Positions 1 to 61,320 of a stretch of 62,451 nt of DNA are shown here, piece after piece (the first letter of the stretch is position 1; every line of letters starts with the position of its first letter). The translations under genes and the position numbers were made by a program. This DNA comes from an uncultured Candidatus Saccharibacteria bacterium (GTDB taxonomy: Bacteria > Patescibacteriota > Doudnabacteria > UBA920). The notes beneath the pieces are model-generated. The model saw only the letters and a program-made list of their open reading frames with translations, did no database searches and was not told the origin of the DNA. The DNA is taken from the NCBI GenBank assembly GCA_964532425.1, contig CAZHIA010000009.1, positions 1-62,451 of the forward strand. The letters are read 5' to 3'.

Positions 1-322
<322 letters not shown>

Positions 323-4993: not shown

Positions 4994-5190
4994 AATTGAC
5001 ATAAATGACATAATTGAACAAAATTGACAAAATTGGAACACAAGAAATTCATTAAAATTTATAGAAACTGATTGAGATTAGTTGTGTCTCACAAATAGTT
5101 TCCATAAATTTCTACTAGTTCCTATTAATTCATGCAGTGGGTAGTAATAATTTTGTCAATTTTGTCAATTTTTTAAATTTTGTTCAATTA
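4994..5190. repeat. word-repeat inverted repeat, family ttgacaaaat (about 200-nt imperfect palindrome)
   Basis: Left arm aattgacataaatgacataattgaacaaaattgacaaaattgg (4994-5036). Right arm taataattttgtcaattttgtcaattttttaaattttgttcaatta (5146-5190). Fills the ATPase-stop to permease-start gap. Confidence 0.8.
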
Positions 5191-6816: not shown

Positions 6817-6930
6817 TCTACAAAACTACCCTGCGGAAATATCCAAATCTACGGAAAACTACGGATTCTCTAAGTGAGGATCCGTAGTTTTCCGTAGATT
6901 TGTAGTTTTGCGTAGCTCCGTAGTTATCTG
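6817..6930. repeat. word-repeat inverted repeat, family ctacgga/ccgtag, with a perfect 22-bp stem
   Basis: aaatctacggaaaactacggat (6845-6866) is the exact reverse complement of atccgtagttttccgtagattt (6880-6901). 13-nt loop, with imperfect word extensions on both sides. Confidence 0.9.
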
Positions 6931-8381: not shown

Positions 8382-8957
8382 TTATTGGATGATTTTGTCG
8401 ATCAATCCGTATTTTTTCGCCTCATCGGCTGTCATGAAGTAATCGCGATCGGAATCAGTTTCAATTTTCTTTACTGGTTGGCCGGTATGCTTCGACAGGA
8501 TCTGGTTGATCTGGTTTTTAATGCGCAGCATTTCCTTGGCCTGTATCTCCACGTCTTTCTGCTGGCCTTCGACGCCTCCCATAACCTGGTGTATGAGTAC
8601 GCGGGCATTCGGCAGTGAAAACCGCTTGCCTTTAGCCCCGCAGGCGAGCAACACCGCAGCCGCGGAGGCTGCTTGCCCGAGACAAATGGTCGCCACGTCG
8701 GCTTTCACGTGTTGCATCGTATCATACAGCGCCAGTGCGGCAGTGACGGACCCGCCCGGAGAATTAATGTAGATCTTAATGTCTTCCTTGCTATTTTCAG
8801 CATCAAGAAAGAGCATCTGTGCAATGATCGTATTGGCTACCGCATCATCAATGGGCTCGCCGAGGAAGATGATGCGCTCGCGGAGCAGCCGGCTGTATAT
8901 GTCATACGCCCGCTCACCCATCGGACTGCGCTCAATCACTATAGGTACTAATGGCAT
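8382..8957 (-). CDS. clpP: ATP-dependent Clp protease proteolytic subunit
   Basis: [43 protein letters not shown]. Start at 8957, since the upstream codons are repeat arm. Confidence 0.95.
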
Positions 8958-8963
8958 AAGCTT

Positions 8964-9057
8964 GAAATTCCAAATATCAAATATCAAATATCAAATTAAC
9001 ACAAATGGGCACGAGCGACTGGTTTCATTTGTAATTTGAAATTTGTAATTTGAAATT
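8964..9057. repeat. word-repeat inverted repeat, family aattccaaat (period-7 arms)
   Basis: gaaattc caaatat caaatat caaatat caaatt versus catttgta atttgaa atttgta atttgaa att. The inner pair is acaaatg / catttgt. Arms are imperfectly complementary. Confidence 0.7.
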
Positions 9058-9063
9058 AATGAT

Positions 9064-10218
9064 TTATTCTTCCTGCTTCGCTTCTTCGGCCCCTGCATCG
9101 ATTGACTCCTGCTCAACAGTCCCTTCCGGCGTTACTACCACTTCTTCGCGCTTGGCAGGATCTTCGCTGACCTCACCGGAAATTTTTTCACCATTGATAT
9201 CAATCTTCCAACCAGTAAGGCGGGCAGCGAGACGGACATTCTGGCCGGCTTTGCCAATAGCCAGGGACAACTGATCTTCTAGGACGCCAACCTTGGCTTC
9301 CTTGTTGTCCTCATCCAGCTGAACATTCAGGATCTTGGCCGGGGACAAAGAATTGGCAATGAATTTGACCGGGTCATCGCTCCACTCGATAATGTCGATC
9401 TTCTCTCCCCCTAATTCTGCCATGACGGTCTGAACGCGGCTGCCTTTCTGGCCGACACAGGAACCAATCGGATCCACACCTTCTTCCGTAGAAAAAACGG
9501 CGATCTTGCTGCGAGAACCAGCCTCGCGGGCTACAGCTTTAATCTCAACGCTCCCATTGTAGATCTCCGGAACTTCCAGTTCGAACAGTTTTCTCACCAT
9601 GTCAGGATGGCTGCGGGACAGCGTGATCTTCGGACCCTTAGTGGCAGGCTCGACGTGCAAAACCAGTACCTTCATGCGCTGGCCGAGCGTATACTTTTCG
9701 CCGCGGATCTGCTCGGATGGGAACAGCACGCCGGTAGCTTTGCCCAAATCAATAAGTATCGTGTCGCCTTCAATACGCTGGACGATACCGTTCATGAGCG
9801 TGCGTTCTTTAGCCTTGTATTCGGAGAATTGCACGTTGCGTTCGGCCTCGCGCAGCTTTTGGATAATGACCTGCTTGGCAGTCTGGGCAGCGATGCGCCC
9901 GAAGCTCGTACCGCTTTTCGGAGTAATGTCAGTCTTAATTTCATCGCCAATTTTAGCATTCTTCTTGAATTCTTGAGCCCCTTCGACATCCAGCTCCTTT
10001 TGAGGATCTTCCACGATTTCTACCACGGTCTTAACGTCAAAAACCTTGGTCGCCAAATTCTCAGGATCAAATTCCACGACGACATTCTGATTCTTTTCGC
10101 CGTAATCCTTACGAAAGGCGGCTGCCAAAGAAGCCTCGATCATGGCAATGATTTCATCGCGGCTAATACCTTTTTCTTCTGCAATCTGGTCTAACGCTTG
10201 CTCGAGTTGTTCGTTCAT
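9064..10218 (-). CDS. nusA: transcription termination/antitermination factor NusA
   Basis: NusA N-terminal domain, S1 and two KH regions (GIVQRIEGDTILIDLG, VGQKGSRVQTVM, AIGKAGQNVRLAARLTGW). Confidence 0.95.
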   Translation of the reverse strand: MNEQLEQALDQIAEEKGISRDEIIAMIEASLAAAFRKDYGEKNQNVVVEFDPENLATKVFDVKTVVEIVEDPQKELDVEGAQEFKKNAKIGDEIKTDITPKSGTSFGRIAAQTAKQVIIQKLREAERNVQFSEYKAKERTLMNGIVQRIEGDTILIDLGKATGVLFPSEQIRGEKYTLGQRMKVLVLHVEPATKGPKITLSRSHPDMVRKLFELEVPEIYNGSVEIKAVAREAGSRSKIAVFSTEEGVDPIGSCVGQKGSRVQTVMAELGGEKIDIIEWSDDPVKFIANSLSPAKILNVQLDEDNKEAKVGVLEDQLSLAIGKAGQNVRLAARLTGWKIDINGEKISGEVSEDPAKREEVVVTPEGTVEQESIDAGAEEAKQEE

Positions 10219-10561: not shown

Positions 10562-11035
10562 CTAGTCCCAGTCCTCAACTGCATTCGGTATAATTGTAAC
10601 AGATTTATCCAATTTGTCAAGCGAACCTTTCACCACATATTTCCGCTGTCCTTCCACCTTCACGGGTTCCAGTTGGCCCATATCGTTCAGAATAATCACT
10701 GCAACATCAATTTGAGGCTGAAGCATCCGGTACTCAGGTTCTTTGAGTAAAAAAATCTTAATGGCCTTAAGCAGTTTTGCTTGCTTATACCGGTCGACTG
10801 ATTCCGCGGCTGTACCATGGAAATCGGCTTCCGTTGACCTGGTTTTTACCTCGACAAAAATGACTCTCCCGCTCCCGGCAGCGATAAAGTCAACCTCCCC
10901 GAGCCGCTTGCCTTTGCGGTTAAAAAAATTCGCGGCTATAACACTATAGCCGCGATGTTTGTATTCGATTTGAGCAATCTCTTCGCCAATCTGGCCAAGG
11001 GTCTTTGGTTGCACTGGTTTGAACCAATTGAACAT
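10562..11035 (-). CDS. YraN family (UPF0102) endonuclease-like protein
   Basis: GEEIAQIEYKHRGYSVIAANF..GEVDFIA..VIFVEVKTR core, with a longer C-terminal tail than usual. Confidence 0.8.
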   Translation of the reverse strand: MFNWFKPVQPKTLGQIGEEIAQIEYKHRGYSVIAANFFNRKGKRLGEVDFIAAGSGRVIFVEVKTRSTEADFHGTAAESVDRYKQAKLLKAIKIFLLKEPEYRMLQPQIDVAVIILNDMGQLEPVKVEGQRKYVVKGSLDKLDKSVTIIPNAVEDWD

Positions 11036-11038
11036 ATT

Positions 11039-11140
11039 TCTACAAATCTACGGATGTATCCTAATCTACAAATACCTACAAATACCCATTGGTGTTATTT
11101 GTAGGTATTTGTAGATTTGTGCCATCTGTAGATTAGTAGT
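11039..11140. repeat. word-repeat inverted repeat, family ctacaaat, with a perfect 22-bp stem
   Basis: aatctacaaatacctacaaata (11063-11084) is the exact reverse complement of tatttgtaggtatttgtagatt (11096-11117). 11-nt loop. Starts 4 nt from the yraN ATG. Confidence 0.9.
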
Positions 11141-11141
11141 T

Positions 11142-11543
11142 TTATTTCGGCAGGTACTTCAGCTTCATCTGTTCCTTTTCCCACTCGGAGCGCTCCGCCC
11201 GATAGCGCTTGGCCAGGTCCACAAGAATGAAAACGAGCCAAACCAGGCCGATGAGCAGCAGGAACAAAGCCACGAAATGACTGCCGAAGAATTTGATGTA
11301 TTCGTAACGGGCGCCGTACCAGGCAATCTCAAGCAATCCTATAGTCAGAAACAAGTTGTAAAATCGGTTGCGAATCCTCTTGTCGGCCGGCGTAGGAGCC
11401 AGGCGTGATGCAATCTTCATGACAATGGCCAATGCCACCCCAATGATCCCCAAAGTCAGAAAAACCTTGTCCGAACGGGTAAGCATTACACGGTTGATGG
11501 TAAAAAGATAATCAAGATTGACCAGTTTCTTAAAATTGAACAT
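11142..11543 (-). CDS. hypothetical membrane protein (4 predicted helices)
   Basis: 133-aa ORF with hydrophobic segments and a basic C-terminal tail. No family recognised. Confidence 0.6.
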   Translation of the reverse strand: MFNFKKLVNLDYLFTINRVMLTRSDKVFLTLGIIGVALAIVMKIASRLAPTPADKRIRNRFYNLFLTIGLLEIAWYGARYEYIKFFGSHFVALFLLLIGLVWLVFILVDLAKRYRAERSEWEKEQMKLKYLPK

Positions 11544-11594: not shown

Positions 11595-11701
11595 TGCAAA
11601 AACAGTGTTTTGCCTATTAAATCACACGGGTATTATAAAAGAAAAACCCCCGGGTGTCGAGAGGCTTTTTGCAGCTAACTTTAGCAAATTTACAAATGAA
11701 T

Positions 11702-11780
11702 GCCAATATACAGATACCTACAAATCTCTCCTGGGCAAATCCGTAGTTATCTGTAAATTTGTCATTATCTGTATATTGGC
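11702..11780. repeat. inverted repeat with a perfect 15-bp stem and word-containing loop
   Basis: gccaatatacagata (11702-11716) pairs with tatctgtatattggc (11766-11780). The loop contains the words cctacaaat and ccgtag. Confidence 0.85.
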
Positions 11781-11816
11781 ATCATATTCCATTGAACAAA
11801 CACCAAATAGTCAACA

Positions 11817-12387: not shown

Positions 12388-12477
12388 TAGTTCTCTCGCG
12401 GATACGCGAACCTCGCGGAAACCAGATCACTTTAGCCAGCGGCATCCGCGAAATCCGCGTATCCGCGAGATAACTAT
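12388..12477. repeat. word-repeat inverted repeat, family atccgcg (copy 1)
   Basis: tagttctctcgcggatacgcgaacctcgcgg .. tccgcgaaatccgcgtatccgcgagataactat. Its termini are shared with the 13281-13372 copy. Confidence 0.85.
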
Positions 12478-12484: not shown

Positions 12485-13279
12485 CTACACTTCCTGATAC
12501 AGCTTCTCAATCCTTACCGCCTTTGGTCCATCCGTTTCTACCAGCACCCCATTAATGCATGCCAACCCCTCTTCTTCCGGCTCCATTTTAAATTTCCCTT
12601 TTTCCAAAAATAGGTCCAATGAATTTTGTATCTGTACCCCGATAACGGAGTTTACCGGACCGGTCATGCCGACATCGGTAATGTACGCCGTGCCGCCGGG
12701 AAGGATCGTTGCGTCAGCCGTCGGTATGTGGGTATGAGTACCGACTATCGCTGTAACTCTGCTATCGAGGTAGCGTCCTAATGCGATCTTTTCGCTGGTT
12801 GCTTCCGCATGAAAGTCTACTAGTATTATATCACCTTTTTGGCTTTGCTCACGGAGGATATCATCCATGCAAAAAAATGGGTTCTTGACGTCGCCGTCGT
12901 ACAACCGGTCAAAAAAAACTTTGCCATTCATATTAATGACCAAATACGACTGCTCATTGATGGTAAACCGGTAATAGCCGTGTCCAGGCTGGTTTTCCGG
13001 GTAATTGGCCGGCCGGATCAGCTTGCCATACTTTTCGAAACATTCGGCTGACAAAGCGCCTTTGTCGAAGACATGGTTACCAGAGGTATAACAGTCAATA
13101 TCCAGATTATCGAATTCGGCTAGCGTATTGGGCGTCACCCCTTTACCGTGAGCCATATTTTCCACATTCACAATGATTGCATCCGGCTGAAACTGTTCTT
13201 TCCACACAGGCAAAACCTCCCGCAGCGCCCTGCGCCCCGGTTTTCCTACAATATCGCCGATGAATAGTATTTTTGCCAT
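12485..13279 (-). CDS. ymdB: YmdB-like metallophosphoesterase (TIGR00282 family)
   Basis: MAKILFIGDIVGKPGR, VNVENMAHGKG, DFHAEATSEK, GTHTHIPTAD. Lies downstream of rny, as in Bacillus. Confidence 0.9.
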   Translation of the reverse strand: MAKILFIGDIVGKPGRRALREVLPVWKEQFQPDAIIVNVENMAHGKGVTPNTLAEFDNLDIDCYTSGNHVFDKGALSAECFEKYGKLIRPANYPENQPGHGYYRFTINEQSYLVINMNGKVFFDRLYDGDVKNPFFCMDDILREQSQKGDIILVDFHAEATSEKIALGRYLDSRVTAIVGTHTHIPTADATILPGGTAYITDVGMTGPVNSVIGVQIQNSLDLFLEKGKFKMEPEEEGLACINGVLVETDGPKAVRIEKLYQEV

Positions 13280-13280
13280 A

Positions 13281-13372
13281 TAGTTCTCTCGCTGATACGC
13301 GGATGACGCGGACCTCGCTGTACGAGATTCTCCGCGCCATCCGTGAAGTCCGCGTATCCGCGAACTAACTAT
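13281..13372. repeat. word-repeat inverted repeat, family atccgcg (copy 2)
   Basis: tagttctctcgctgatacgcggatgacgcgg .. tccgcgccatccgtgaagtccgcgtatccgcgaactaactat. Overlaps the rny stop codon and starts 2 nt from the ymdB ATG. Confidence 0.85.
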
Positions 13373-14907
13373 CTTGCGTATTCAATTACTCTAGTCTCGC
13401 GTATAACATGCACCTTGATCTCGCCAGGGAACTTCAACTCATTCTCTAACCGGTTGGCTATTTCGCGAGCGATCTTCTGACACCCATAGTCATCCAGCTT
13501 CTCCGGCTTGACGAATACGCGAATCTCACGACCACCTTGGATGGCGTATGTCTTTTCCACACCTTCGAAACTATTAGCGATGTTCTCCAGGTCGGTCAGG
13601 CGCTTGATGTAATTCTCAAGCGTGTCTTTTCTGGCACCCGGCCTACTGCCGGAAATATTGTCACAGGCATCGACAATAATGGCTTCCACGCTCTCAGCCT
13701 CTTCCGTTTTGCCTGTCACATCCGTGTCATGGTGGTGGGAAGTAATAGCTTCAATGACGCGCTTGTCGAGGTTGAACTTTTCGGCAATCTTCCGTCCTAG
13801 CTCCACATGAGTGCCTTCCAAGTCCTGGTCCAAAGCTTTGCCAATATCATGCAGTAATGCACCCTGCTTGGCGATCTGCACGTCTGCCCCCAGTTCTTCA
13901 GCCATGAGCGCAGCGAGCTTGCCCATCTCCACGCTGTGGCGGAGAATATTCTGGCCATACGATGTCCTGAACATCAGGCGGCCAATAAGGTGGACAAGTT
14001 TGGGAGGAAATGAGGCAATTCCGAGCTCATATACTGCCTGTTCACCGGCAGCCTTGATCTGTTCATTAATTTCAGCCTTGCTTTTCTCGTAAGCCTCTTC
14101 AATGCGGGCCGGATGAATGCGTCCGTCGGCCAGCAATTTCTCCAAGGTAAGCTTGGCAATGTGGCGGCGAATGGAATTGAATCCCGAAATAACTACGGTA
14201 TCAGGGCTGTCATCAATAAGAATTTCCACGCCCATCATTTGCTCGAATGCTCGAATGTTGCGACCTTCCTTGCCGATGATGCGGCCTTTCATCTCTTCGC
14301 TCGGAATCTGGACCGTGGTGGTCGTGGTTTCTGCAGTCACTTCCGAAGCGACGCGCTCGATGGCCTGGGCTACGATTCGACGGGCTTCGCGCTCCGCCTC
14401 GTCATGGGCGCTGGCCACGAGCTTTCTGTGCAGCTGGACCATTTCATCTTTGACCTGGCGTTCGGCATTATTGAGCAGCACCTGAGCCGCTTCCTCGCGG
14501 GTCATTTGCGCGATCTTTTCCAGATTGGCAATTTGCTTGGCTTTGAGTTCGCGAATCTCTTCCTGGATCTGCTTAATCTCTTGCGCTTTGCGCTCCGTAT
14601 CTTCGCGCTGCCGGTCCAACTGGGTATTCTTCTGTTCAAGCTCTTTTTCTCGGCGGTCAATGCGCTCTTCGAACCTGACGATTTGCTGGCGGAAATCAGA
14701 TTCCTGCTTCTTGGCTTGGTCGATGATTTCCAAGCTGCGAGACTTGGCATCGAGCAAAAGTTCTTTTTCCTTTGCCTTGGCTTCTTCCAAGATTTTCTCG
14801 GCGCGCTCTTCGGCGCTGCCAACCTTCTTCGACATGATGGACTGCCTCAGATAGTAGCCAACAGCCGCTCCGAGGACAGCCCCCAAAATGATATAAACTG
14901 CAATCAT
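13369..14907 (-). CDS. rny: ribonuclease Y
   Basis: N-terminal TM helix, coiled coil, KH (GRIIGKEGRNIRAFE) and HD domain (LLHDIGKA). Start at MIAVYII (14907). Confidence 0.95.
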   Translation of the reverse strand: MIAVYIILGAVLGAAVGYYLRQSIMSKKVGSAEERAEKILEEAKAKEKELLLDAKSRSLEIIDQAKKQESDFRQQIVRFEERIDRREKELEQKNTQLDRQREDTERKAQEIKQIQEEIRELKAKQIANLEKIAQMTREEAAQVLLNNAERQVKDEMVQLHRKLVASAHDEAEREARRIVAQAIERVASEVTAETTTTTVQIPSEEMKGRIIGKEGRNIRAFEQMMGVEILIDDSPDTVVISGFNSIRRHIAKLTLEKLLADGRIHPARIEEAYEKSKAEINEQIKAAGEQAVYELGIASFPPKLVHLIGRLMFRTSYGQNILRHSVEMGKLAALMAEELGADVQIAKQGALLHDIGKALDQDLEGTHVELGRKIAEKFNLDKRVIEAITSHHHDTDVTGKTEEAESVEAIIVDACDNISGSRPGARKDTLENYIKRLTDLENIANSFEGVEKTYAIQGGREIRVFVKPEKLDDYGCQKIAREIANRLENELKFPGEIKVHVIRETRVIEYAR

Positions 14908-16453: not shown

Positions 16454-16460
16454 TATACTA

Positions 16461-16538
16461 CCTTTGACCTTTGACATGTGACATTTGACTTTCTGCACTA
16501 GCAGTCGGTCAAAGGTTAAATGTCAAATGTTAAATGTT
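16461..16538. repeat. word-repeat element, family tgacatttgac (copy A)
   Basis: cctttgacctttgacatgtgacatttgacttt, loop ctgcactagcagtcg, then gtcaaaggttaaatgtcaaatgttaaatgtt. The arms are near-identical to copy B at 51977-52056. Confidence 0.9.
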
Positions 16539-17594
16539 CTAAAGTTGATTAACTGCTTTACTTCCTAATTCATTTAAAATTTCCTTCAAATCTGCCGCCA
16601 AGTCCGATTCCGCCTCTATCCATGTACCATCAGGCAGGCGAACTTCGATCTTCTTGGCATGCAGGAACTGGCGAGTCAGGCCGGGCAATTGGCCTTTCTT
16701 TGTACCATATAGTGGATCTCCCACTAAGGGAAATCCGGCGGAAGAAAAATGAACGCGGATCTGGTGCGTTCTACCTGTGTGCAATTTTACCAGAACCAGG
16801 GTGTATTCGTCAAGACTGGTTTTTATGTCATCGCGAGGAGGCAAGGGCTTTATCTTGCCGATGTGGCGATCTTCCGCAGTATAGATTGCTTCGCCCTCAG
16901 ATGCATTCGGTCTCGCAATGACACCAGAAGTCAGATACTCCAACACTCGGTACTCCGTCAAAGACGGCTTAGCCTCAACCATATTTGTTGTGCTGTATTT
17001 GCGAAAATCCGTCTTACTCCGCCCGATCGGCTGGTCAAAGAACCCATGCGGGTGTTCCATCCTGCCGGCGACTAAGGCGATGTATTCTTTCTTAATCCTT
17101 CGCTGCCCAAAAGCATCCTTCAGATACTCATACATATCCTGCGTCGTAGCCACCAGCATGACGCCGCTCGTGTCCTTATCGAGCCGATGGACAATACCGG
17201 GACGACCTTCTTCCCCCACCACTTGAATATCTTTGAAATGATACAGCAGCGCGCTCGCCAGGCTTTCCCCTTTAAATCCTGCTCCCGGATGTACGGCCAG
17301 CCCTGCCGGCTTGTCGATGACAAGCAGTCCGTGATCGTGATATAGAACTTTAAGCGGTGTATTTGTGGCTGTTATTTCGGATTTTGAATTGCGGATTTCG
17401 GGTTGCCGATACTGTATCACATCATCTTTCCTAACCACATACTTACTCTCATTCTGCTCAACTCCGTTGACTGAAACCAGCCCAGCTTCAATATCCCGCT
17501 GGATCTGGCTGCGGGAAATCTCGGGCAAATCGGCCGCAATAGCCTTATCGAGCCGAGTTTTGAGATCTTTGACTTGAAACGAATGTGAGTCCAT
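16539..17594 (-). CDS. RluA-family pseudouridine synthase (RluD-like) carrying a 32-codon in-frame insert
   Basis: S4 domain, HRLDKDTSGVMLV catalytic motif and TGRTHQIRVH. Start at MDSHSF (17594), since the upstream ORF extension has no homology. Confidence 0.9.
   Translation of the reverse strand: MDSHSFQVKDLKTRLDKAIAADLPEISRSQIQRDIEAGLVSVNGVEQNESKYVVRKDDVIQYRQPEIRNSKSEITATNTPLKVLYHDHGLLVIDKPAGLAVHPGAGFKGESLASALLYHFKDIQVVGEEGRPGIVHRLDKDTSGVMLVATTQDMYEYLKDAFGQRRIKKEYIALVAGRMEHPHGFFDQPIGRSKTDFRKYSTTNMVEAKPSLTEYRVLEYLTSGVIARPNASEGEAIYTAEDRHIGKIKPLPPRDDIKTSLDEYTLVLVKLHTGRTHQIRVHFSSAGFPLVGDPLYGTKKGQLPGLTRQFLHAKKIEVRLPDGTWIEAESDLAADLKEILNELGSKAVNQL
16827..16922. repeat. 96-bp palindromic element inserted in frame in rluD
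   Basis: Terminal inverted repeats gtcatcgcgag (16827-16837) and ctcgcaatgac (16912-16922), 10/11 complementary. Inner hairpin ggcaag..cttgcc. Length is exactly 32 codons. Confidence 0.75.
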
Positions 17595-17615: not shown

Positions 17616-17906
17616 ATGATGAACCGCAAGGAAACGCTTGTCGCTATAAAAAAATTTAAGGATGGCAGCAGCGTCGAAGTCCTCAGACAGACGAGGGTAC
17701 CTGGCCCAAACGCCAGGGCAACTACCAGCACCGTCTATGTATTCAAACGCGCTCCCGGAACAGCAAACCCCAAGCCGCTGGCTGACCTGACGCCGCGCGA
17801 TCTGCGGAGGATCGCCAAGAAAGCCGAGGAGATCAGGCAATTCCTGAGCACAATCCATCCACAGAGTAAATCGCGTTCGTTTTCCGAGAACACCTATCGC
17901 CGCTAA
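17616..17906 (+). CDS. hypothetical small basic protein (orphan)
   Basis: aagggagg SD at 17607-14 followed by ATGATG. 96-aa ORF with its own promoter. No family recognised. Competes with the unsupported N-terminal extension of rluD on the other strand. Confidence 0.5.
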   Translation: MMNRKETLVAIKKFKDGSSVEVLRQTRVPGPNARATTSTVYVFKRAPGTANPKPLADLTPRDLRRIAKKAEEIRQFLSTIHPQSKSRSFSENTYRR

Positions 17907-17945
17907 CCGCTTACAGGCCCATATATGTAAACCGGGCTTGTTTTT

Positions 17946-18782
17946 TTAATTTTTGTCAATTAACAGGTCCGGGCGCCGCTTCTTGGTCCGCTTGAGCGCT
18001 TCGCTATGGCGGAATTCTTCCACTTTCTGATGATTGCCGGAGAGCAACACCGTAGGAACCTGTAAGATTTTTATTCTATTACTCGCTGTCCGAGCCGGTC
18101 GCGACCGGCCCCTACCGACCGCATTCTGGACTTTTGATAACTTTTTACTTGATAACTTGATAACTAATTTTTCCGGTTTTGTATACTGTGGATATTCCAA
18201 CATTGCTTCCGAGAATGATTCTTTATCTGTTGATTCGATTTTGCCTAATATCCCTGGACGCAATCTCATAACCGCTTCACTGATCACGAGCGCCGGCAAT
18301 TCCCCGCCCATCAGCACATAATCGCCGATAGACAACTCTTCATCTACAAAAGACCTGATCCGCTCGTCAAAACCTTCATACCTCCCGCATACAAAAACGA
18401 GATTGTCATATTGAGCGAGCCGCTGCGCATCACGCTGATTGAACCGCTTGCCTTGCGGTGTAAGCATAATTATGCGCCTCTGTGCTGTAGGGGCGGCCAT
18501 TGGCCGCCCTTTGCTGGGAGGCCGATGGCCTCCCCTACAGGCGGACCGGATCGCTTTATACATGACATCAGCACGCAGCACCATCCCCACTCCGCCGCCA
18601 TACGGCCGGTCGTCAACGATCTGCCGCTGTCCCAGGCCGAACTCACGTAAATTGATCGGCTGCATCTTGAGCAATTTGCCTTTAATGGCTTTTTGCAAAA
18701 TACCAAAACTTTCCGCGAAGCTCTCAATAAACTGCGGGAATAGCGTAATAATTTTTACGGAAAGGCTCTGTTGCTTCTTCAT
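17946..18782 (-). CDS. trmD: tRNA (guanine37-N1)-methyltransferase with two in-frame insertions
   Basis: VDDRPYGGGVGMVL, VCGRYEGFDERI, SIGDYVLMGGELPA and VLLSGNH, all collinear with E. coli TrmD except for two extra segments. Confidence 0.95.
   Translation of the reverse strand: MKKQQSLSVKIITLFPQFIESFAESFGILQKAIKGKLLKMQPINLREFGLGQRQIVDDRPYGGGVGMVLRADVMYKAIRSACRGGHRPPSKGRPMAAPTAQRRIIMLTPQGKRFNQRDAQRLAQYDNLVFVCGRYEGFDERIRSFVDEELSIGDYVLMGGELPALVISEAVMRLRPGILGKIESTDKESFSEAMLEYPQYTKPEKLVIKLSSKKLSKVQNAVGRGRSRPARTASNRIKILQVPTVLLSGNHQKVEEFRHSEALKRTKKRRPDLLIDKN
18065..18172. repeat. insertion 2 in trmD: GC palindrome plus ttgataac word repeats
   Basis: gccggtcgcgaccggc is a perfect 16-nt palindrome (18094-18109) followed by ccctac. 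Tandem ttgataac words lie at about 18135-18170. Encodes VIKLSSKKLSKVQNAVGRGRSRPARTASNRIKI, which is absent from E. coli TrmD. Confidence 0.7.
18485..18540. repeat. insertion 1 in trmD: 56-nt GC-rich double-hairpin palindrome
   Basis: Outer pair ctgtagggg .. cccctacag. Inner hairpins are ggcggcc att ggccgcc and gggaggcc gat ggcctccc. Translated in frame as CRGGHRPPSKGRPMAAPTAQ. Confidence 0.8.
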
Positions 18783-18932
18783 TTGGATTCATTATATCAT
18801 CTATGCGAAAAATAACCCCAAGCCGTCCCATGACAGGACAGGTTCGGGGTTATTATTTTTTAGATTCAGCGTAGTTCCGCATTCCGCCTCCGCCGACTGG
18901 CGATGGAGGATTCCGCGTCCTTCCGCGGTATC

Positions 18933-19268
18933 TTATAATTTGAAGTCGTCGATTGCGTCGCCGGTGTCTTCGGACACGGCTACGCTTTCGTGACGTGCCT
19001 CGTGGCGCGGGCCCTTGTGGGAACCTTCCGGCTCATAGATCTTCAGGTTGACGCGAGCTTTGCGCTTGGCGCCCACCACTCGGAGCAACGTCCGGATAGC
19101 CTTGGCTGTCTGGCCCATACGTCCGATGACTTGGCCCATGTCTTCCGGGTTCAAGTGGAGCGTAATGAGAACACCCATTTCATCGACAACGCGTTCGGTT
19201 TTTACATCCTGAGGATGATCAACCAAAGCTTTGACAATGTACTCCACAAACTCTTGGTCTTGTTCCAT
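18933..19268 (-). CDS. KH domain RNA-binding protein (YlqC/UPF0109-like)
   Basis: FVEYIVKALVDHPQDV and GQVIGRMGQTAKAIRTLL (GxxG KH loop). In the conserved position between rpsP and trmD. Confidence 0.85.
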   Translation of the reverse strand: MEQDQEFVEYIVKALVDHPQDVKTERVVDEMGVLITLHLNPEDMGQVIGRMGQTAKAIRTLLRVVGAKRKARVNLKIYEPEGSHKGPRHEARHESVAVSEDTGDAIDDFKL

Positions 19269-19337
19269 GGTATTCGTGCTACTGATATTCCGATAGCTTA
19301 ATTCGCTTCGACTACTGCAAAGCTGCTATCTGGCTCT

Positions 19338-19366
19338 AGTATAAGAGATTTTGGCAGTTATGTCAA
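19338..19366 (-). promoter_or_regulatory. sigma70-type promoter for the KH-trmD unit
   Basis: Minus strand reads TTGACA (rc of 19361-19366), 17 nt, TATACT (rc of 19338-19343). Confidence 0.55.
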
Positions 19367-19373
19367 TACTAAA

Positions 19374-19399
19374 AAATTTCCCTGCGGGCAGGGAAATTT
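19374..19399 (-). terminator. terminator after rpsP (A/T-flanked, potentially bidirectional)
   Basis: aaatttccctgc gg gcagggaaattt, a 12-bp stem flanked by A and T runs. Confidence 0.75.
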
Positions 19400-19403
19400 T
19401 TGT

Positions 19404-29534: not shown

Positions 29535-29610
29535 TGGTGGGCGGTACAGGGATCGAACCTGTTACCTTCTCTACGTCAAAGAGACGCTCTACCAACTGAG
29601 CTAACCGCCC
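29535..29610 (-). tRNA. tRNA-Val (anticodon GAC), CCA encoded
   Basis: The reverse complement folds as a cloverleaf: GGGCGGT acceptor, GCTC/GAGC D stem, TCTCT-TTGACGT-AGAGA anticodon arm, ACAGG-TTCGATC-CCTGT T arm, then ACCGCCC-A-CCA. Confidence 0.9.
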
Positions 29611-30572: not shown

Positions 30573-30687
30573 AAAAATTCCTAATTCCTAATTTCTAAAT
30601 CCCAAACAAAATTCCCAATACCTCAATTCCCAAATTGATTAATGGATCTTTATTGGAAATTAGATATTGGGAATTGGAAATTATTTT
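30573..30687. repeat. word-repeat inverted repeat, family aattccaaat
   Basis: aaaaattcctaattcctaatttctaaatcccaaacaaaattcccaatacctcaattcccaaatt .. ttggaaattagatattgggaattggaaattatttttt. Spans exactly from the ftsH stop to the start of the 30570 gene. Confidence 0.75.
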
Positions 30688-32586
30688 TTATGCTGTCACC
30701 GGCTCGGCTGGCGGCATTTCGGTGGCTGGGATCTCACCTTGGAACTCAGGAGCCCGCTTCTTTTCTGCTGGAATAATGTCTTTGACAATCTCGTCGAATT
30801 GTTCCTGTTCAAGAGTCTCTTCCTTTACCAAGCGCGTGGCGATGATATCCAGATACGAGCGGTATTTATTCAAGGCTTCGGTCGCCCGATCAAAACCTTC
30901 GCGCATCAAGCGTGAGACTTCATCGTCGATCTTCTTAGCAACTTCTTCGCTATAGTTGCGCTGTTCGCTGATTTCGCGGCCCAGGAAGACCATTTCATGA
31001 TGATCTCCCAATGAGATCGGCCCTAATTCTTCGCTCATGCCGTAGTTAGTCACCAGGCGGCGGGCCATATTGGTCGCAACCTTCAAATCATTGGAAGCGC
31101 CGGTAGTCAATTCTTTAAAGACCAGTTTTTCCGCTGCATAACCGCCGAGGAGCGCGGCAATTTCATCGAGGAAGCTCTGGCGGGTGTGCAGGTGTTTGTC
31201 TTCAACCGGCAGCTTCATGGTATAACCGGCTGCACGGCCGCGGGAGATGACCGAGACTTTGTGCACCGGGTCGGAGTACGGCAACACCGTGCCGACCAGA
31301 GCATGGCCGCCTTCGTGGTAAGCAGTGACTTCCTTTTCCTTCGGCGTCAAAATATGGCTCTTGCGTTGGGGTCCCAGCATGACCTTTTCAATGGATTCGC
31401 GCAATTCTTCATTGCCAATTTCGCGCTTATTGTTGCGGGCGGTCAAGATGGCAGCCTCGTTGATGAGGTTTGCCAAATCAGCTCCGGAAAAGCCCGGGGT
31501 ACGTTCCGCGATCTTGCGCATGTTGACTTCTTTGGCCAATGGTTTGTTCTTGGCATGGACTTTCAAAATTTCTTCCCGGTCTTTAATATCGGGTAAGTCC
31601 AGCACGACCTGACGGTCAAAACGTCCCGGGCGAAGCAAGGCGGGATCAAGTACATCCGGGCGGTTAGTTGCAGCCATGACAATCACATTCGTATCGGTCT
31701 CGAAACCGTCCATCTCCACCAGAATCTGGTTCAAAGTCTGTTCTCGTTCATCATGCCCACCGCCTAGACCTGCTCCGCGCTGGCGGCCGACCGCATCAAT
31801 TTCATCAATGAATACAATGCACGGGGCATTGCGCTTGGCCTTTTTGAACAGGTCGCGGACGCGGGCCGCACCCACACCAACAAACATTTCGACGAATTCG
31901 GAACCCGAGATATGGAAGAACGGTACATTCGCTTCACCAGCTACGGCACGGGACAACAAAGTCTTACCTACGCCCGGACTGCCGAGCAGTAAAACGCCTT
32001 TGGGAATCTTAGCGCCAAGCTGCAGGAATTTTTGCGGATAACGGAGGAACTCGACAATCTCTTTCAGTTCTTCTTTGGCTTCTTTGGCGCCGGCCACGTC
32101 GGCAAAGCGCACGCGATTGCGGCGCTCATCGGATAATTTAACCGAGCTCTGACCAAAGGACAAAGCCCTGTTGTTCGTCCCCTGCACCTGGCGCATGAGG
32201 AAGTAGATGAAAAACGCGATCAGGACAAACGGAATAAGTATCGGCCAAATGGCGCTCAGTAACATAGAGGCAAGGCCGCCGGACTTATTCTCGATGCGGA
32301 GTGCGCGGATCTTGTCGGATGAGATACCGCTATCCTTCAGTACCTGCGTGATATTCTCATTATTCCCCAGCTGCGCCTGCTGCTTGGTGCTATCACCTTT
32401 AATATCAGCCACTACCGTATTTCCGGATATGGTCACGCTATTGACCTTGCCCTGGTCAACCAGGTTGACAATGTCCGAGATGGCCACGTCTTTGACCTTG
32501 GTGTTGTCAGAGAAGGCATAAAATAATCCGGTGATCAAAAGGAACCCGAGAAGTATATAGATGATGTTCTTTACGATTTTACCCAT
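30688..32586 (-). CDS. ftsH: ATP-dependent zinc metalloprotease FtsH
   Basis: Walker [11 protein letters not shown], Walker [13 protein letters not shown] region and zinc motif HEGGHAL. Confidence 0.97.
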
Positions 32587-32867: not shown

Positions 32868-32954
32868 TGGTGGGGACGGAGGGACTTGAACCCTCAATCT
32901 CTTGCGAGAACCAGCTCCTAAGGCTGGCGCGTATGCCAATTCCGCCACATCCCC
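32868..32954 (-). tRNA. tRNA-Leu (anticodon TAG), long variable arm, CCA encoded
   Basis: Reverse complement is GGGGATG..CCAGC-CTTAGGA-GCTGG..GAGGGTTCAAGTCCCTC..CCCCACCA. Confidence 0.9.
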
Positions 32955-33085: not shown

Positions 33086-33219
33086 ATTTTGGCTGGAAAA
33101 TTGCTTGAAAACCTAAGGATTCTGTAGTGCAGGGCCGTGGCCTGCCTATCATGGTCGTAGGGGCGGGTCGCGACCCGCCCCTACACATGAGCAAATCTTT
33201 AAGCAATTTTCTCGCCAAA
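33086..33219. repeat. nested inverted repeat in the 5' leader, containing a 28-nt perfect GC palindrome
   Basis: The outer arms ttttggctggaaaattgcttgaaaa (33086-33110) and tctttaagcaattttctcgccaaaa (33195-33219) are 21/25 complementary. Inner elements are gcagg..cctgc (33128-33144) and gtaggggcgggtcgcgacccgcccctac (33156-33183). Confidence 0.8.
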
Positions 33220-37677: not shown

Positions 37678-38463
37678 TTATCTATTCAGTGTCCCGGCGA
37701 CTACTGCCACGATCGTATAAGAAAGGATGACCACAACCAGTCCGATAACGGCGTTGACGAGCGTGTTCTTGCCTTTCTCTGCCTGCTCGCCATTACCAGC
37801 CGAGGTAATGTACCAGAAGCCGCCTAAAATAATGAACACAACAGCAATAGCTCCGGCAAACTGCAATAACATTTTGATAATCTTTTGGAGCAGCGTCGGC
37901 AAGGTATCGGCATTGTTCCAGCCAGTGTTGGTTTGGGGAATACAGATGCCATTCTTAAAATCATACCCCGCACCGCAATTTCCTGAACCACCACCCGAAC
38001 CAGAACCCCCAGTACCGCCCGTACCGCCAGTTCCACCAGAACCTCCGGTCCCACCGGTTCCACCAGCACCTCCAGCTCCAGTATCTCCTCCCGTTCCGCC
38101 GGTGCCAGTTCCACCCGTACCAGTCCCCGATCCGCCCCCTGGATTATTGGACATGCATTCGTTGGTAATAGGATTCATGGTATACCCAGAATTGCATTCG
38201 CACGCTCCGGTAGAATTATTACAGCTTTGATTGGAACCGCATGTCTTGCCCGCGCACGGGTTAGTCTGCGTGCCGCCTTGGTCGTATACGCAGGTGCCGC
38301 TGCCCGGATCACATGCCAATCCTCCGGCAGTGTCGCAATCGGAATTTTGGGAGCAGGATCCGCCAATACCTACCGTTCCCGCAAACGCTAAGGGGGACGC
38401 GACTGCCAGCAGACTGACTGCAACCATTCCAGCTATTAAAAATTTTGGGAATAGTTTATTCAT
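37678..38463 (-). CDS. TrbC/VirB2-like 'T4SS pilin' paralog 1 with a Cys-rich head and Gly/Thr/Ser linker
   Basis: Signal peptide, 12-Cys EGF-like region, (GGT/GGS)n linker. C-terminal module FWYITSAGNGEQAEKGKNTLVNAVIGLVVVIL lies between two hydrophobic helices. Confidence 0.8.
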   Translation of the reverse strand: MNKLFPKFLIAGMVAVSLLAVASPLAFAGTVGIGGSCSQNSDCDTAGGLACDPGSGTCVYDQGGTQTNPCAGKTCGSNQSCNNSTGACECNSGYTMNPITNECMSNNPGGGSGTGTGGTGTGGTGGDTGAGGAGGTGGTGGSGGTGGTGGTGGSGSGGGSGNCGAGYDFKNGICIPQTNTGWNNADTLPTLLQKIIKMLLQFAGAIAVVFIILGGFWYITSAGNGEQAEKGKNTLVNAVIGLVVVILSYTIVAVVAGTLNR

Positions 38464-38466
38464 ACC

Positions 38467-38853
38467 TCAAATTTGCCCGTTACCGACTAAATTGCTGACC
38501 ACCGTAACCAGCACATAGGACAAGGCGATAACCACAATACCAATTAGGGCATTGACCACGGTGTTCTTGCCTTTTTCCGCGGACTCGGCACTGCCGGCTG
38601 AGGTGATATACATGTAACCGCCATAGACCAGGAAAATAATGGCAATCGCTCCGGTAAACATGAGCATGAGCCGTATCACGTTCGTGATCAATTCCATAAC
38701 CGATTGGGAATTCCCCAACCGTCCGGAGTTACCAAAAATGCTCCTGAGTCCGCTTCCGCTCAAACCTTCGCTGACCGCATCGGCAAACGCCACCAGCGGT
38801 ACCGAAACAGCCGCACCGGCAGCAACAAGGCCTTTGATGAATTTGTTTTTCAT
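38467..38853 (-). CDS. TrbC/VirB2-like 'T4SS pilin' paralog 2 (minimal form)
   Basis: Signal peptide plus YMYITSAGSAESAEKGKNTVVNALIGIVVIAL module. 128 aa. Confidence 0.85.
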   Translation of the reverse strand: MKNKFIKGLVAAGAAVSVPLVAFADAVSEGLSGSGLRSIFGNSGRLGNSQSVMELITNVIRLMLMFTGAIAIIFLVYGGYMYITSAGSAESAEKGKNTVVNALIGIVVIALSYVLVTVVSNLVGNGQI

Positions 38854-38992
38854 ATTATTTCATTATGTTTTTGAACTGGTCTTTTGGTGCAACTGGGATT
38901 CCACAAAAAGATCGGTCCAAAAATTAGGAAGTTCCTGCCCCGCTTCCAGCAGTATAAGCTGCCGGCGTGCGGGGCAGGAATCAAATTTATGG

Positions 38993-39403
38993 TTACGGGG
39001 TTGAAGTCCCAGTACCAGCATTGCTGACCAGGTTGGAAACCACGCTGACGATAACGTATGAAAGCACGATAATAACGATACCGATCAAAGCGTTAACTGC
39101 AGTGTTCTTGCCTTTTTCCGCGGACTCCGCGTTACCGGCAGAAGTGATGTACTGGAAACCGCCGATAATAAGGAACAAAACCGCGATACCGAAGGCGATA
39201 CCGAGCATCCAGCGAATCACGGTGGTGATAAGCCCGTTGACGCTCGTACCGGCGTTACAGTTCACGCCGCCCAACTGGTTGCAGTCCACACCGGAAGACA
39301 GCGCAAAAGCGCTCGCCACCGGCACTACCGTTATGGCAATAACGGCAATAATCTCTGCAATTTTGAGGAAATCGATTTTTCTTATTTGTTTCAAGCTGTT
39401 CAC
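38993..39403 (-). CDS. TrbC/VirB2-like 'T4SS pilin' paralog 3 (minimal form)
   Basis: FQYITSAGNAESAEKGKNTAVNALIGIVIIVL module. GTG start at 39403, or TTG at 39394 behind gagagggg. Confidence 0.8.
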   Translation of the reverse strand: MNSLKQIRKIDFLKIAEIIAVIAITVVPVASAFALSSGVDCNQLGGVNCNAGTSVNGLITTVIRWMLGIAFGIAVLFLIIGGFQYITSAGNAESAEKGKNTAVNALIGIVIIVLSYVIVSVVSNLVSNAGTGTSTP

Positions 39404-39490
39404 CCCCTCTCGGGTTTCAAAGATATGAATATCCTTGTTTGCTAATAATAGTATACTATAAAAACCGCAAAAGTTAAAACGAATTTCCCT

Positions 39491-51966: not shown

Positions 51967-51976
51967 TGTATTAAAA

Positions 51977-52056
51977 CCTTTGACCTTTGACATGTGACAA
52001 TTGACTTTATGGGCCGCAGGCCTCTGTCAAAGGTTAAATGTCAAATGTTAAATGTT
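51977..52056. repeat. word-repeat element, family tgacatttgac (copy B)
   Basis: cctttgacctttgacatgtgacaattgacttt, loop atgggccgcaggcctct, then gtcaaaggttaaatgtcaaatgttaaatgtt. The left arm is 31/32 and the right arm 31/31 identical to copy A. Confidence 0.9.
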
Positions 52057-52130
52057 GTATTATAAGTATACGAACGTTCACCTATACCAGTATACCACAT
52101 GCTCACAAGCACGCAAGCCCACCCTGGGGA

Positions 52131-53086: not shown

Positions 53087-53341
53087 AAAATTCCAAATCT
53101 CAAATTACAAACCTGGGGACGACATGTGACCTGTAACCATTGACATTTGACCGTAGTGCAAGCCCCGTAGACTTGTTGTACGAGGCAGGCCAGTGGCCTG
53201 CCCCGTGTCAAATGTCACATGTCAATTGTCAAATGTCCCTTGTCTGTTTATTTGTGTTTTGTGATTTGGCCCCATCATTCGATGGGACCACCCCGTCGCA
53301 TGACGGGGTGGATTTTTATTGGAAATTGGGAATTGGATTTT
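53087..53341. repeat. two-level nested word-repeat inverted repeat (aattccaaat outside, tgacatttgac inside)
   Basis: Outer pair aaaattccaaatctcaaattacaaa .. ttggaaattgggaattggatttt. Inner pair 53121-53151 / 53207-53237. The core holds ggcaggcc agt ggcctgcc (53184-53202) and ccaccccgtc gcat gacggggtgg. Confidence 0.8.
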
Positions 53342-61316: not shown

Positions 61317-61320
61317 GGTA

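What the first reader, a model, noticed from the sequence alone, without database searches (positions are those of the whole stretch)
18065..18540. Two in-frame palindromic/word-repeat insertions inside essential trmD
Seen:
- Collinear comparison with E. coli TrmD (from memory) leaves two extra segments.
- Insert 1 (18485-18540) is a 56-nt GC-rich unit. It has an outer stem ctgtagggg/cccctacag and two inner hairpins, and is translated as CRGGHRPPSKGRPMAAPTAQ.
- Insert 2 (about 18065-18172) contains the perfect 16-nt palindrome gccggtcgcgaccggc followed by ccctac, plus tandem ttgataac words. It is translated as VIKLSSKKLSKVQNAVGRGRSRPARTASNRIKI.
- Both motifs resemble intergenic elements elsewhere in the window.

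Inference: the intergenic repeat system also colonises coding sequence without breaking the frame. That implies either selection for frame-preserving insertions or a length-constrained insertion mechanism.
Basis: partly seen in the sequence, partly recalled or inferred. Interest (0 to 1): 0.7.

Follow-up and report, generated by a model that had tools for sequence, protein, structure and literature searches.

The report
Palindromic repeats inserted in-frame in trmD
An essential tRNA-methylase gene of a tiny uncultured bacterium carries two short hairpin-forming DNA repeats of the widespread "REP" type inside its reading frame, a known kind of event (as in Rickettsia) not yet described in this bacterial group.

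Summary
trmD (17946-18782, minus strand, 278 aa) has two extra segments compared with solved TrmD structures.

Insert 1 (18485-18540) is two inverted GTAG-headed GC hairpins 6 nt apart, a REPIN-like dimer. Insert 2 holds a decayed 28-nt GTAG...CTAC palindrome (18088-18115) next to an 8-nt tandem word array (18134-18165).

In 80 related Candidatus Doudnabacteria genomes, both sites are loops of very variable length. At least eight orthologues carry GTAG...CTAC palindromes there, with different stems. At site 1 they usually start at the same codon position.

Insert 1 is 89-95% identical at third codon positions between genomes, against 39-45% in the rest of the gene. So the conserved unit is the DNA palindrome, not the peptide.

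Near-identical palindromes lie in intergenic DNA of the window (33157-33184) and in more than 120 metagenome contigs. Some sit in-frame in unrelated genes and in RayT (REP transposase) genes, including Patescibacteria ones.

Best reading: REP elements of the GTAG class kept in two tolerant surface loops. Mobilisation by a RayT enzyme is inferred, and none is in the window. In-frame REPs are already documented, so this is a new member of a known kind.

The parts
17946..18782 (-). trmD coding sequence (278 aa), the host gene; intact reading frame
   Evidence: ORF listing. PF01746 match at E 1.3e-50. 27 solved TrmD structures matched, best E 1.4e-53.
18485..18540 (.). Insert 1: a REPIN-like dimer of two inverted GTAG-headed hairpins with a 6-nt spacer. 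It encodes CRGGHRPPSKGRPMAAPTAQ.
   Evidence: I13. DNA fold -22.9 kcal/mol, z = -6.6. Orthologous copies in L001 and L002.
18516..18538 (-). REP unit A of insert 1: GTAG + GGGAGGCC-ATC-GGCCTCCC
   Evidence: One compensatory G:C to A:T pair compared with L001 and L002.
18487..18509 (+). REP unit B of insert 1: GTAG + GGGCGGCC-ATT-GGCCGCCC
18088..18115 (-). Insert 2 core: a decayed 28-nt palindrome, GTAGGGGCCGGTCGCGACCGGCTCGGAC. Three changes lie in the right arm. It encodes GRGRSRPART.
   Evidence: A better-preserved orthologous copy, GTAGGGGCCGGTCGCGACCGGCCCGTAC, is in the sister sequence P0002 (L201).
18134..18165 (-). Tandem 8-nt word array (TTGATAAC on +, GTTATCAA on -), 4.1 copies. It encodes part of VIKLSSKKLSK.
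   Evidence: Related xxATCAAG words lie at the same place in orthologues. The P0010 peptide is identical and P0010 has no hairpin-coded segment.
33124..33145 (+). Intergenic GTAG-headed GGCC-core hairpin (CTGTAG-TGCAGGGCCGTGGCCTGC), same style as the insert-1 units
   Evidence: read directly. Lies between a tRNA (32871-32954) and the ORF starting at 33251.
33157..33184 (.). Intergenic perfect 28-nt palindrome GTAGGGGCGGGTCGCGACCCGCCCCTAC, the intact form of the insert-2 element
   Evidence: (I24). The exact sequence recurs in many metagenome contigs.
53184..53202 (.). Intergenic GC hairpin GGCAGGCCAGTGGCCTGCC between inverted word arrays; a possible relative of the insert-1 hairpins (GGCC-A-N-TGGCC core)
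   Evidence: Resemblance only; no adjacent GTAG.

Best explanation
The two extra segments are copies of a GTAG-headed repetitive palindrome family (REP type). They sit in two surface loops of TrmD that tolerate almost any length.

Insert 1 is a pair of inverted REP units, a REPIN-like dimer. Insert 2 is a single 28-nt GTAG...CTAC palindrome that has started to decay, next to a tandem 8-nt word array that most likely grew in place by slippage.

**Inferred.** The palindromes are nucleotide-level elements. They are presumably copied as single-stranded hairpins by a RayT-type HUH/Y1 transposase encoded elsewhere in the genome, or kept uniform by gene conversion with other copies.

**Why only in-frame copies are seen.** In an essential gene, selection removes every copy that shifts the frame, brings the TAG of GTAG into frame, or hits a structured part of the protein. 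Only in-frame copies in disordered loops remain.

**Shown:** the anatomy, the homology to intergenic and metagenomic copies, the turnover among orthologues, the excess nucleotide conservation, and the loop location.

**Inferred only:** mobilisation by RayT and the selective filter.
For: **Anatomy**
- GTAG plus GC stem-loop units, in inverted pair at insert 1.

**Orthologues (80 Doudnabacteria-like trmD loci)**
- Both sites vary in length: 17-48 aa and 22-53 aa over the compared stretches.
- L001, L002, L003, L011, L022, P0002 and P0048 carry GTAG...CTAC palindromes with different stems at these loops. L008 carries a GTAG...CTAC hairpin with a GC-poorer, unrelated body.
- At site 1 the GTAG starts at the same codon position in six orthologues (window, P0002, L001, L002, L011, L022), which carry at least three distinct element types.

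**Turnover**
- The sister sequence P0002 is 88% identical in the core.
- It shares the site-2 element but has a different site-1 element. That element matches its own site-2 copy, including the same G/G asymmetry.

**Nucleotide-level conservation**
- Third-codon identity in insert 1 is 18/19 against L001 and 17/19 against L002.
- The same measure is 45% and 39% in the core gene. My binomial estimate is about 1e-5 for each comparison.
- One compensatory pair changes two amino acids (G to S, P to L) but keeps the stem.

**The same family elsewhere**
- Intergenic copies: window 33157-33184, L006 2291 and L203 8849.
- Exact pattern in at least 120 metagenome contigs of GC 33-71%. 73 of 123 copies lie outside ORFs.
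- Other copies are in-frame in an HsdS-like protein, a GT4 glycosyltransferase, an M24 peptidase, DprA and DUF1786.

**Link to RayT**
- The palindrome lies in RayT-like genes (NF047646, E 8e-19; JGI name 'REP element-mobilizing transposase RayT').
- Patescibacteria genomes encode such genes with the same GGTCGCGACC core: L206 4257-4284 and L205 10310-10337.
- L205 also has extragenic copies at 10736 and 17892.

**Location in the protein**
- The AlphaFold model puts both inserts in low-confidence coil between conserved elements: helix 71-82 to strand 102-113, and strand 203-209 to strand 237-243.

**Precedent**
- Intragenic in-frame GTAG REPs, often dimers encoding 20-30 aa and sometimes two per gene, are documented (PMC3733652).
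Against: - No RayT-like gene is in the window or in the trmD flanks of the 80 relatives. The rest of the genome could not be searched.
- The family is low-copy in the window: one intergenic locus and two copies in trmD. Classical REPs are abundant.
- GTAG is base-paired with CTAC here, whereas it is described as unpaired in classical REPs (PMC3733652).
- In the trmD-centred sample most GTAGGGG units lie inside trmD, which is about 12% of the bases, rather than in flanking DNA. A purely random-insertion-plus-filter model does not obviously predict that.
- The covariation count rests on three sequences and is not significant (152 of 500 shuffles).
Confidence: 0.75

Rival explanations
1. The hairpins are a selected cis-acting element of trmD itself. 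One option is an mRNA structure that slows translation or sets differential expression within the rpsP-KH-trmD-(rplS) cluster. Another is a fixed 'safe harbour' or target site for the REP system. Under this reading their presence in trmD is not just tolerated.
For: - GTAGGGG-type units are concentrated in trmD in the sampled Doudnabacteria DNA. About 16 units lie in trmD, against three intergenic ones and one compound element in a neighbouring ORF.
- The same codon position is reused by different element bodies.
- Synonymous sites are strongly conserved inside insert 1.
Against: - Most of the 80 orthologues have no hairpin at either site, and some have AT-rich words instead.
- The bodies differ and decay (window site 2, P0048 site 1).
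- None of the 123 metagenomic copies had a TrmD-like flanking peptide; they lie in many unrelated contexts.
- The sample is centred on trmD and includes inherited copies, so the enrichment is overstated.
Confidence: 0.12
2. The palindromes arose in place, through template switching or quasi-palindrome correction and replication slippage in a low-complexity loop, without any mobile element.
For: - Both loops are full of short tandem words in many orthologues.
- The 8-nt array of insert 2 is best explained this way.
Against: - The same 28-nt sequences, down to the stem variants, occur in intergenic DNA and in unrelated genes of unrelated organisms. L011's GTAGGGGAGGGTCTAGACCCTCCCCTAC equals L159's copy in an M24 peptidase.
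- All share GTAG/CTAC ends.
Confidence: 0.05
3. The inserts are protein-level adaptations: Arg/Gly/Pro-rich loops that help a tRNA-binding enzyme. The palindromy would be incidental.
For: - The peptides are basic.
- Site 2 lies in the C-terminal part of TrmD. From general knowledge, not tested here, this is the domain that contacts tRNA.
Against: - The same DNA is read in different frames in different hosts: RGGSRPAPT, VGAGRDPPL, VGTGRDLSL.
- Compensatory changes alter the peptide but keep the stem.
- Third codon positions are the best-conserved ones.
- The model shows no confident structure for the inserts.
Confidence: 0.05
4. Assembly artefact: a chimeric or misjoined contig placed repeat sequence inside trmD.
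For: Repeats are a classic cause of misassembly, and the window's own reads could not be examined.
Against: - The insert-1 dimer is at the same position in independent assemblies from other samples (L001 CAYOXN010000062, L002 JAMDAY010000022).
- The site-2 element is in P0002, which comes from two independent ENA assemblies.
- The frame is intact on both sides.
Confidence: 0.02

Closest known systems
GTAG-tagged REPs, including intragenic ones (Di Nocera, De Gregorio & Rocco 2013, PMC3733652; Nunvar et al. 2010, PMC2817692)
   Same: - A short GC-rich stem-loop with a GTAG tetranucleotide at its foot.
- Units often paired in inverted orientation.
- Some copies lie wholly inside ORFs, in-frame, as dimers encoding 20-30 aa, sometimes twice in one gene.
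- Association with RayT-type Y1 transposases.
   Different: - Here GTAG is paired with a CTAC at the other end, so the unit is a full palindrome.
- Copy number in the window is low.
- The host is a Patescibacteria (CPR) lineage, for which I found no REP report.
- No RayT gene was seen in the window.
REPINs (Bertels & Rainey 2011, PMC3116915)
   Same: Insert 1 is two inverted REP units separated by a short spacer. It can fold into one long hairpin.
   Different: - REPINs form populations of many near-identical extragenic copies.
- The 56-nt unit here is unique in the window and lies inside a gene.
Rickettsia palindromic elements, RPE (Ogata et al. 2000; as summarised in PMC3733652 and PMC10969869)
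   Same: Palindromic repeats inserted in-frame in functional protein-coding genes, giving extra surface peptide segments. The same gene can be hit more than once.
   Different: - RPE-1 is longer (from my own knowledge, roughly 100-150 bp; the papers read here say only 'longer').
- RPEs are specific to Rickettsia, unrelated in sequence, and not linked to a RayT.
IS200/IS605-family and RayT (TnpA-REP) HUH/Y1 transposases (PMC3479197, PMC6006769, PMC8266576)
   Same: The proposed mobilising enzyme class recognises a hairpin together with a 5' tetranucleotide guide (GTAG) on single-stranded DNA.
   Different: - No enzyme activity or insertion event is shown here.
- The RayT-like genes found carry the palindrome inside their own coding sequence. 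The papers I read do not describe that.

Membership tests
TrmD (tRNA m1G37 methyltransferase, PF01746), the host gene | Match to the family profile over the whole domain; conserved motifs intact | tested here: met
   PF01746 172 bits against a cut-off of 27.3, profile positions 2-195 of 195. 95 invariant columns shared with 27 orthologues.
GTAG-type REP | Short (20-40 bp) GC-rich imperfect palindrome forming a stem-loop | tested here: met
   Units of 22-28 nt with 8-14 bp stems. Insert 1 folds at z = -6.6.
GTAG-type REP | GTAG (or GTGG) tetranucleotide at the foot of the hairpin | tested here: met
   GTAG directly precedes every unit. Difference: it pairs with CTAC at the far end, whereas the literature describes it as unpaired (PMC3733652).
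GTAG-type REP | Many dispersed, mostly extragenic copies in the same genome | tested here: inconclusive
   The window (62 kb) has one intergenic locus (33124-33184) and the two trmD sites. Related genomes have intergenic copies (L006, L203). The rest of the genome is not available.
GTAG-type REP | A cognate RayT (REP-associated tyrosine transposase) gene in the genome, usually flanked by REPs | not testable with these tools
   None in the window or the 80 trmD loci (tblastn), but only about 6% of a roughly 1-Mb genome is in hand. RayT-like genes with the same core palindrome, plus extragenic copies, exist in other Patescibacteria.
REPIN | Two REPs in inverted orientation with a short spacer, able to form a long hairpin | tested here: met
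   Insert 1: units at 18487-18509 (+) and 18516-18538 (-), 6-nt spacer, single long hairpin as minimum-energy fold.
REPIN | A population of near-identical copies in the genome | tested here: not met
   The 56-nt unit occurs once in the window at up to 3 mismatches. A genome-wide count was not possible.
Rickettsia palindromic elements (RPE) | In-frame insertion of a palindromic repeat in a functional protein-coding gene | tested here: met
Rickettsia palindromic elements (RPE) | Sequence membership of one of the RPE families of Rickettsia | not tested
   No RPE sequences were compared. Host phylum and element length differ, so only an analogy is claimed.
MITE | Terminal inverted repeats plus target-site duplication; 70-300 bp | tested here: not met
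   No direct repeat flanks either insert (sequence read directly). The units are 28-56 nt.

The most novel reading that the evidence does not exclude
The GTAG...CTAC palindromes may be more than passengers tolerated in TrmD loops. Two readings remain open.

- **Targeting.** The REP system of these bacteria may repeatedly target, or be kept at, one defined codon position of trmD (GCN-Y|GTAG). That would be site-specific insertion or REP-on-REP replacement, making trmD a heritable safe harbour.
- **Self-embedding.** The cognate RayT genes carry the same palindrome in-frame just after their HUH motif, in whichever frame is open. This would physically link the transposase to its own substrate or allow self-regulation.

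Either would be a new feature of REP-RayT biology.
Probability: 0.15. Interest if true: 0.7.

Novelty: new member of a known kind. Interest (0 to 1): 0.45.

Why it matters
- **Reach of REP elements.** It shows that REP-type palindromes, and probably a REP-RayT system, exist in the reduced genomes of Patescibacteria. Intergenic space there is scarce, so some copies survive inside essential genes.
- **A practical signature.** Peptides such as RGGSRPAPT, GRGRSRPART and VGTGRDLSL mark repeat-derived segments. The signature can be used to recognise lineage-specific 'insertions' in CPR proteins and to avoid over-interpreting them as functional domains.
- **A natural experiment.** The recurrent use of one codon position in trmD, and the palindrome inside RayT genes, allow tests of whether REP insertion is targeted and how these elements persist.

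Tried and rejected
- **Known RNA families.** An Rfam scan of 17800-19400 gave only a chance mir-661 hit (25 bits against a gathering score of 73, E 0.25). No known RNA family.
- **Copies of the 56-nt unit.** Searched in the window at up to 3 mismatches: none.
- **Copies of the TTGATAAC word pair.** None elsewhere in the window. The words are not a dispersed element here.
- **RayT in the data held.** tblastn of three RayT-like proteins against the window, L001-L080 and L201-L204 hit only the palindrome itself.
- **Covariation.** A test on the three orthologous insert-1 copies found one compensatory pair, not significant (152 of 500 shuffles). I rely on the third-position conservation instead.
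- **Literature by sequence string.** The search returned only unrelated eukaryotic papers.
- **Literature on REPs in Patescibacteria.** Nothing relevant.
- **Assembly artefact.** Rejected, because independent assemblies carry the same inserts.
- **Length-constrained insertion.** Considered but not supported. The GTAG-to-CTAC spans are 28, 52, 58 and 59 nt.

Full report
**1. The observation**

The minus-strand ORF 17946-18782 encodes a 278-aa TrmD. It matches PF01746 at 172 bits across the whole profile.

Alignment to solved TrmD structures leaves two gaps (S. aureus 3ky7 as example). One is a 15-residue gap within query residues about 81-96. The other is an unaligned block at residues 206-236.

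Read on the coding strand it is CTGTAG-GGGAGGCCATCGGCCTCCC-AGCAAA-GGGCGGCCAATGGCCGCCC-CTACAG. As single-stranded DNA it folds at -22.9 kcal/mol, z = -6.6, and none of 200 shuffles folds as well.

Insert 2 contains the perfect 16-nt palindrome at 18094-18109 followed by CCCTAC. It also holds an 8-nt tandem array, TTGATAAC, at 18134-18165 with 4.1 copies. By itself the insert-2 hairpin is not statistically unusual (z = -0.6).

Best protein hits place the organism in Candidatus Doudnabacteria (Patescibacteria/CPR).

**2. What the orthologues show**

I collected 80 trmD loci from related genomes and aligned the genes. Both sites are loops of very variable length.
- The stretch around site 1 is 17-24 aa in most genomes, 33 aa in the window, and up to 48 aa.
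- The stretch around site 2 is 22-35 aa in most genomes, and 50-53 aa in the window, L001 and L002.

The DNA of the longer versions falls into two classes.

*GC-rich palindromes with GTAG...CTAC ends*
- L003 site 1: ATAGGGGGCGGATAATATCCGCCCCTACA.
- L003 site 2: GTAGGGGCGGGTCTAGACCCGTCCCTAC.
- L011 site 1: GTAGGGGAGGGTCTAGACCCTCCCCTAC.
- L022 site 1: a mutated copy of the L011 element.
- L002 site 2: a 59-nt compound element.
- P0048: decayed and compound copies at both sites.
- L001 and L002 site 1: the same two-hairpin dimer as the window.
- L008 site 1: a GTAG...CTAC hairpin with a different, GC-poorer body.

*AT-rich tandem words.* An example is L059 (AAATTTC)n, which reads as KFQISNFKFQIK. 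The 32-nt word array in L010's trmD matches an intergenic array of the window (8965-8996) with two mismatches, where none is expected by chance.

At site 1 the GTAG begins at the second base of the same codon (GCN YGT AGG GG) in the window, P0002, L001, L002, L011 and L022. These six carry at least three distinct element types.

**3. Turnover and nucleotide-level conservation**

Outside the two loops, the window's TrmD is 88% identical to P0002, 81% to L002 and 77% to L001.

P0002 shares the site-2 element at the same position, in better condition: GTAGGGGCCGGTCGCGACCGGCCCGTAC. At site 1 it has no dimer. It has a second copy of its own site-2 palindrome with 30 extra nucleotides in the loop. 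Both copies share the same G/G asymmetry. That points to copying or conversion within that genome.

The dimer shared by the window, L001 and L002 is much better conserved than its host.

| Comparison | Nucleotide identity, insert 1 | Third-codon identity, insert 1 | Nucleotide identity, core | Third-codon identity, core |
|---|---|---|---|---|
| window vs L001 | 89% | 18/19 | 70% | 45% |
| window vs L002 | 88% | 17/19 | 71% | 39% |

My binomial estimate from these numbers is about 1e-5 for each comparison.

The one stem position that differs has changed on both sides, G:C to A:T. This turns Gly to Ser and Pro to Leu while keeping the pair. With three sequences the covariation count alone is not significant.

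So what is conserved is the DNA palindrome, not the peptide.

**4. The family outside trmD**

In the window there is one intergenic locus, 33122-33186, between a tRNA and the next gene. It reads CTGTAG-TGCAGGGCCGTGGCCTGC-...-GTAGGGGCGGGTCGCGACCCGCCCCTAC. It carries both hairpin styles seen in trmD. A similar GGCC-core hairpin sits between inverted word arrays at 53184-53202.

In 583 kb of Doudnabacteria sequence the clear GTAGGGG units are mostly inside trmD. The intergenic ones are at window 33157, L006 2291 and L203 8849. One compound element lies in a 302-aa ORF next to trmD (L203 11557-11657). This sample is centred on trmD and includes inherited copies, so the enrichment is suggestive only.

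Of 123 copies, 73 lie outside ORFs of 100 aa or more. Others are in-frame in real genes:
- a type I restriction specificity-subunit (HsdS-like) protein;
- a GT4 glycosyltransferase;
- an M24 peptidase;
- DprA;
- DUF1786.

In the in-frame copies I judged to lie in real genes, the open frame is usually xGT AGG GG (RGGSRPAPT) and sometimes GTA GGG (VGAGRDPPL). The third frame would read TAG, a stop.

**5. Link to a transposase**

About 20 of the metagenomic copies lie at one position of a 170-196-aa protein, directly after an HUH motif (MPNHFHGIL...GRGGSRPAPT...). This protein matches NCBIfam 'REP-associated tyrosine transposase' (E 8e-19, 68 bits, below the curated cut-off of 80). A low-GC homologue matches Pfam Y1_Tnp above its cut-off. 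There is a weak hit to E. coli TnpA-REP, 4er8. JGI names relatives 'REP element-mobilizing transposase RayT'.

A low-GC subfamily is annotated from many Patescibacteria MAGs. Most members carry VGTGRDLSL after the HUH motif. Others carry RDRSRPVPT, or two to four tandem copies.

The DNA confirms palindromes with the same GGTCGCGACC core:
- GTAGGGACAGGTCGCGACCTGTCCCTAC (L206 4257-4284);
- GTAGATGCGGGTCGCGACCCGCATCTAC (L205 10310-10337).

The L205 genome also has extragenic copies just downstream of the gene (10736-10763) and at 17892-17919. So a REP-RayT pairing exists in CPR bacteria.

No RayT-like gene is in the window or in the trmD flanks. The rest of the genome could not be searched.

**6. 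Where the inserts sit in the protein**

The AlphaFold model has mean pLDDT 70. It places insert 1 in coil between helix 71-82 and strand 102-113, with pLDDT below 50 at residues 85-87 and 93-96. It places insert 2 between strands 203-209 and 237-243, with pLDDT below 50 at 222-233.

By alignment with solved TrmDs, and from general knowledge of the fold, the SAM-binding knot loops correspond to LTPQGK, GRYEGFDE and SIGDYVLMGGELP. These motifs are intact and nearly invariant in the lineage. I did not measure distances in the model.

**7. Interpretation**

The best reading is that GTAG-type REP elements (a REPIN-like dimer and a decaying monomer) have lodged in two tolerant loops of an essential gene. 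Selection removes every copy that breaks the frame, brings TAG into frame, or hits folded parts.

The 8-nt word array is more likely slippage in place. Related xxATCAAG words occupy the same spot in orthologues, and P0010 has the identical peptide with no hairpin-coded segment.

Rivals considered:
- a selected cis-element of trmD (possible, about 0.12);
- origin of the hairpins in place (contradicted by identical copies elsewhere);
- protein-level adaptation (contradicted by frame switching and third-position conservation);
- assembly artefact (contradicted by independent assemblies).

**8. Comparison with what is known**

Di Nocera et al. 2013 describe GTAG-tagged REPs, their inverted dimers, their association with RayT genes, and REPs lying wholly inside ORFs. 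These are often dimers encoding 20-30 aa, sometimes two per gene (PMC3733652). Rickettsia RPEs are the classic in-frame case.

Differences here:
- the fully palindromic GTAG...CTAC form;
- the low copy number in the window;
- the CPR host, for which I found no REP report;
- repeated use of one codon position;
- the palindrome inside RayT genes, which I did not find described.

Verdict: a real feature and a new member of a known kind, of moderate interest.

Noticed in passing
L098 5262-5289 and 9206-9233; L206 4257-4284; L205 10310-10337; protein alignments A3 and A4: RayT-like (HUH/Y1) transposase genes carry a GTAG...CTAC palindrome in-frame directly after the HUH motif. It reads RGGSRPAPT in Chloroflexi-type genes. 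In Patescibacteria and other lineages it reads VGTGRDLSL or RDRSRPVPT, sometimes in two to four tandem copies. The peptide changes with the frame, so the DNA palindrome seems to be the conserved part. I did not find this described in the REP/RayT papers I read.
   Followed up: partly
window 4994-5189, 6826-6925, 8965-9065, 11043-11143, 11684-11782, 12388-12476, 13275-13377, 16460-16541, 30576-30688, 51966-52073, 53121-53237, 61241-61318: Nearly every longer intergenic region holds tandem and inverted arrays of a 7-10-nt 'word' (for example AATTGACAA, GTCAAATG, AATCTACGAAT, ATCCGCGAA), and most loci use their own word. Their function was not examined. Terminators, operators or another repeat system are all possible.
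   Followed up: no
L010 1919-1946 (trmD site 1) versus window 8965-8996: A 32-nt AT-rich word array inside the trmD loop of another species matches an intergenic array of the window with two mismatches, where none is expected by chance. So the AT-rich words also appear both in coding loops and in intergenic DNA.
   Followed up: partly
L203 11557-11657: In another Doudnabacteria genome, a roughly 100-nt compound GTAG...CTAC element lies inside the 302-aa ORF just downstream of trmD. An intergenic copy of the same subfamily as its trmD site-1 element lies upstream of rpsP (8849-8871).
   Followed up: partly
L201 (P0002) trmD, site 1 and site 2: The closest relative has a 30-nt nested insertion in the loop of its site-1 palindrome. 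Both of its trmD palindromes share the same G/G mismatch (GGGG paired with CCCG), which suggests copying within the genome.
   Followed up: partly
window 18219-18221 (codon of Glu188 in trmD): The residue aligned with the second Asp of the DDSF motif in S. aureus TrmD is Glu in all 28 aligned orthologues (ESF is invariant). From memory, this position corresponds to the catalytic base Asp169 of E. coli TrmD.
   Followed up: no
window 1-322 (-), 29538-29610 (-), 32871-32954 (-): The contig starts inside a 16S rRNA gene. Its 5' 354 model positions are matched at 281 bits. Two tRNA genes are also present.
   Followed up: yes
window 37678-40231: Four diverged 141-nt direct repeats (37709, 38507, 39048, 39888) and 9/27-nt periodic arrays (37985-38124) lie within a run of minus-strand ORFs. 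This may be a family of repeat-containing paralogous proteins.
   Followed up: no
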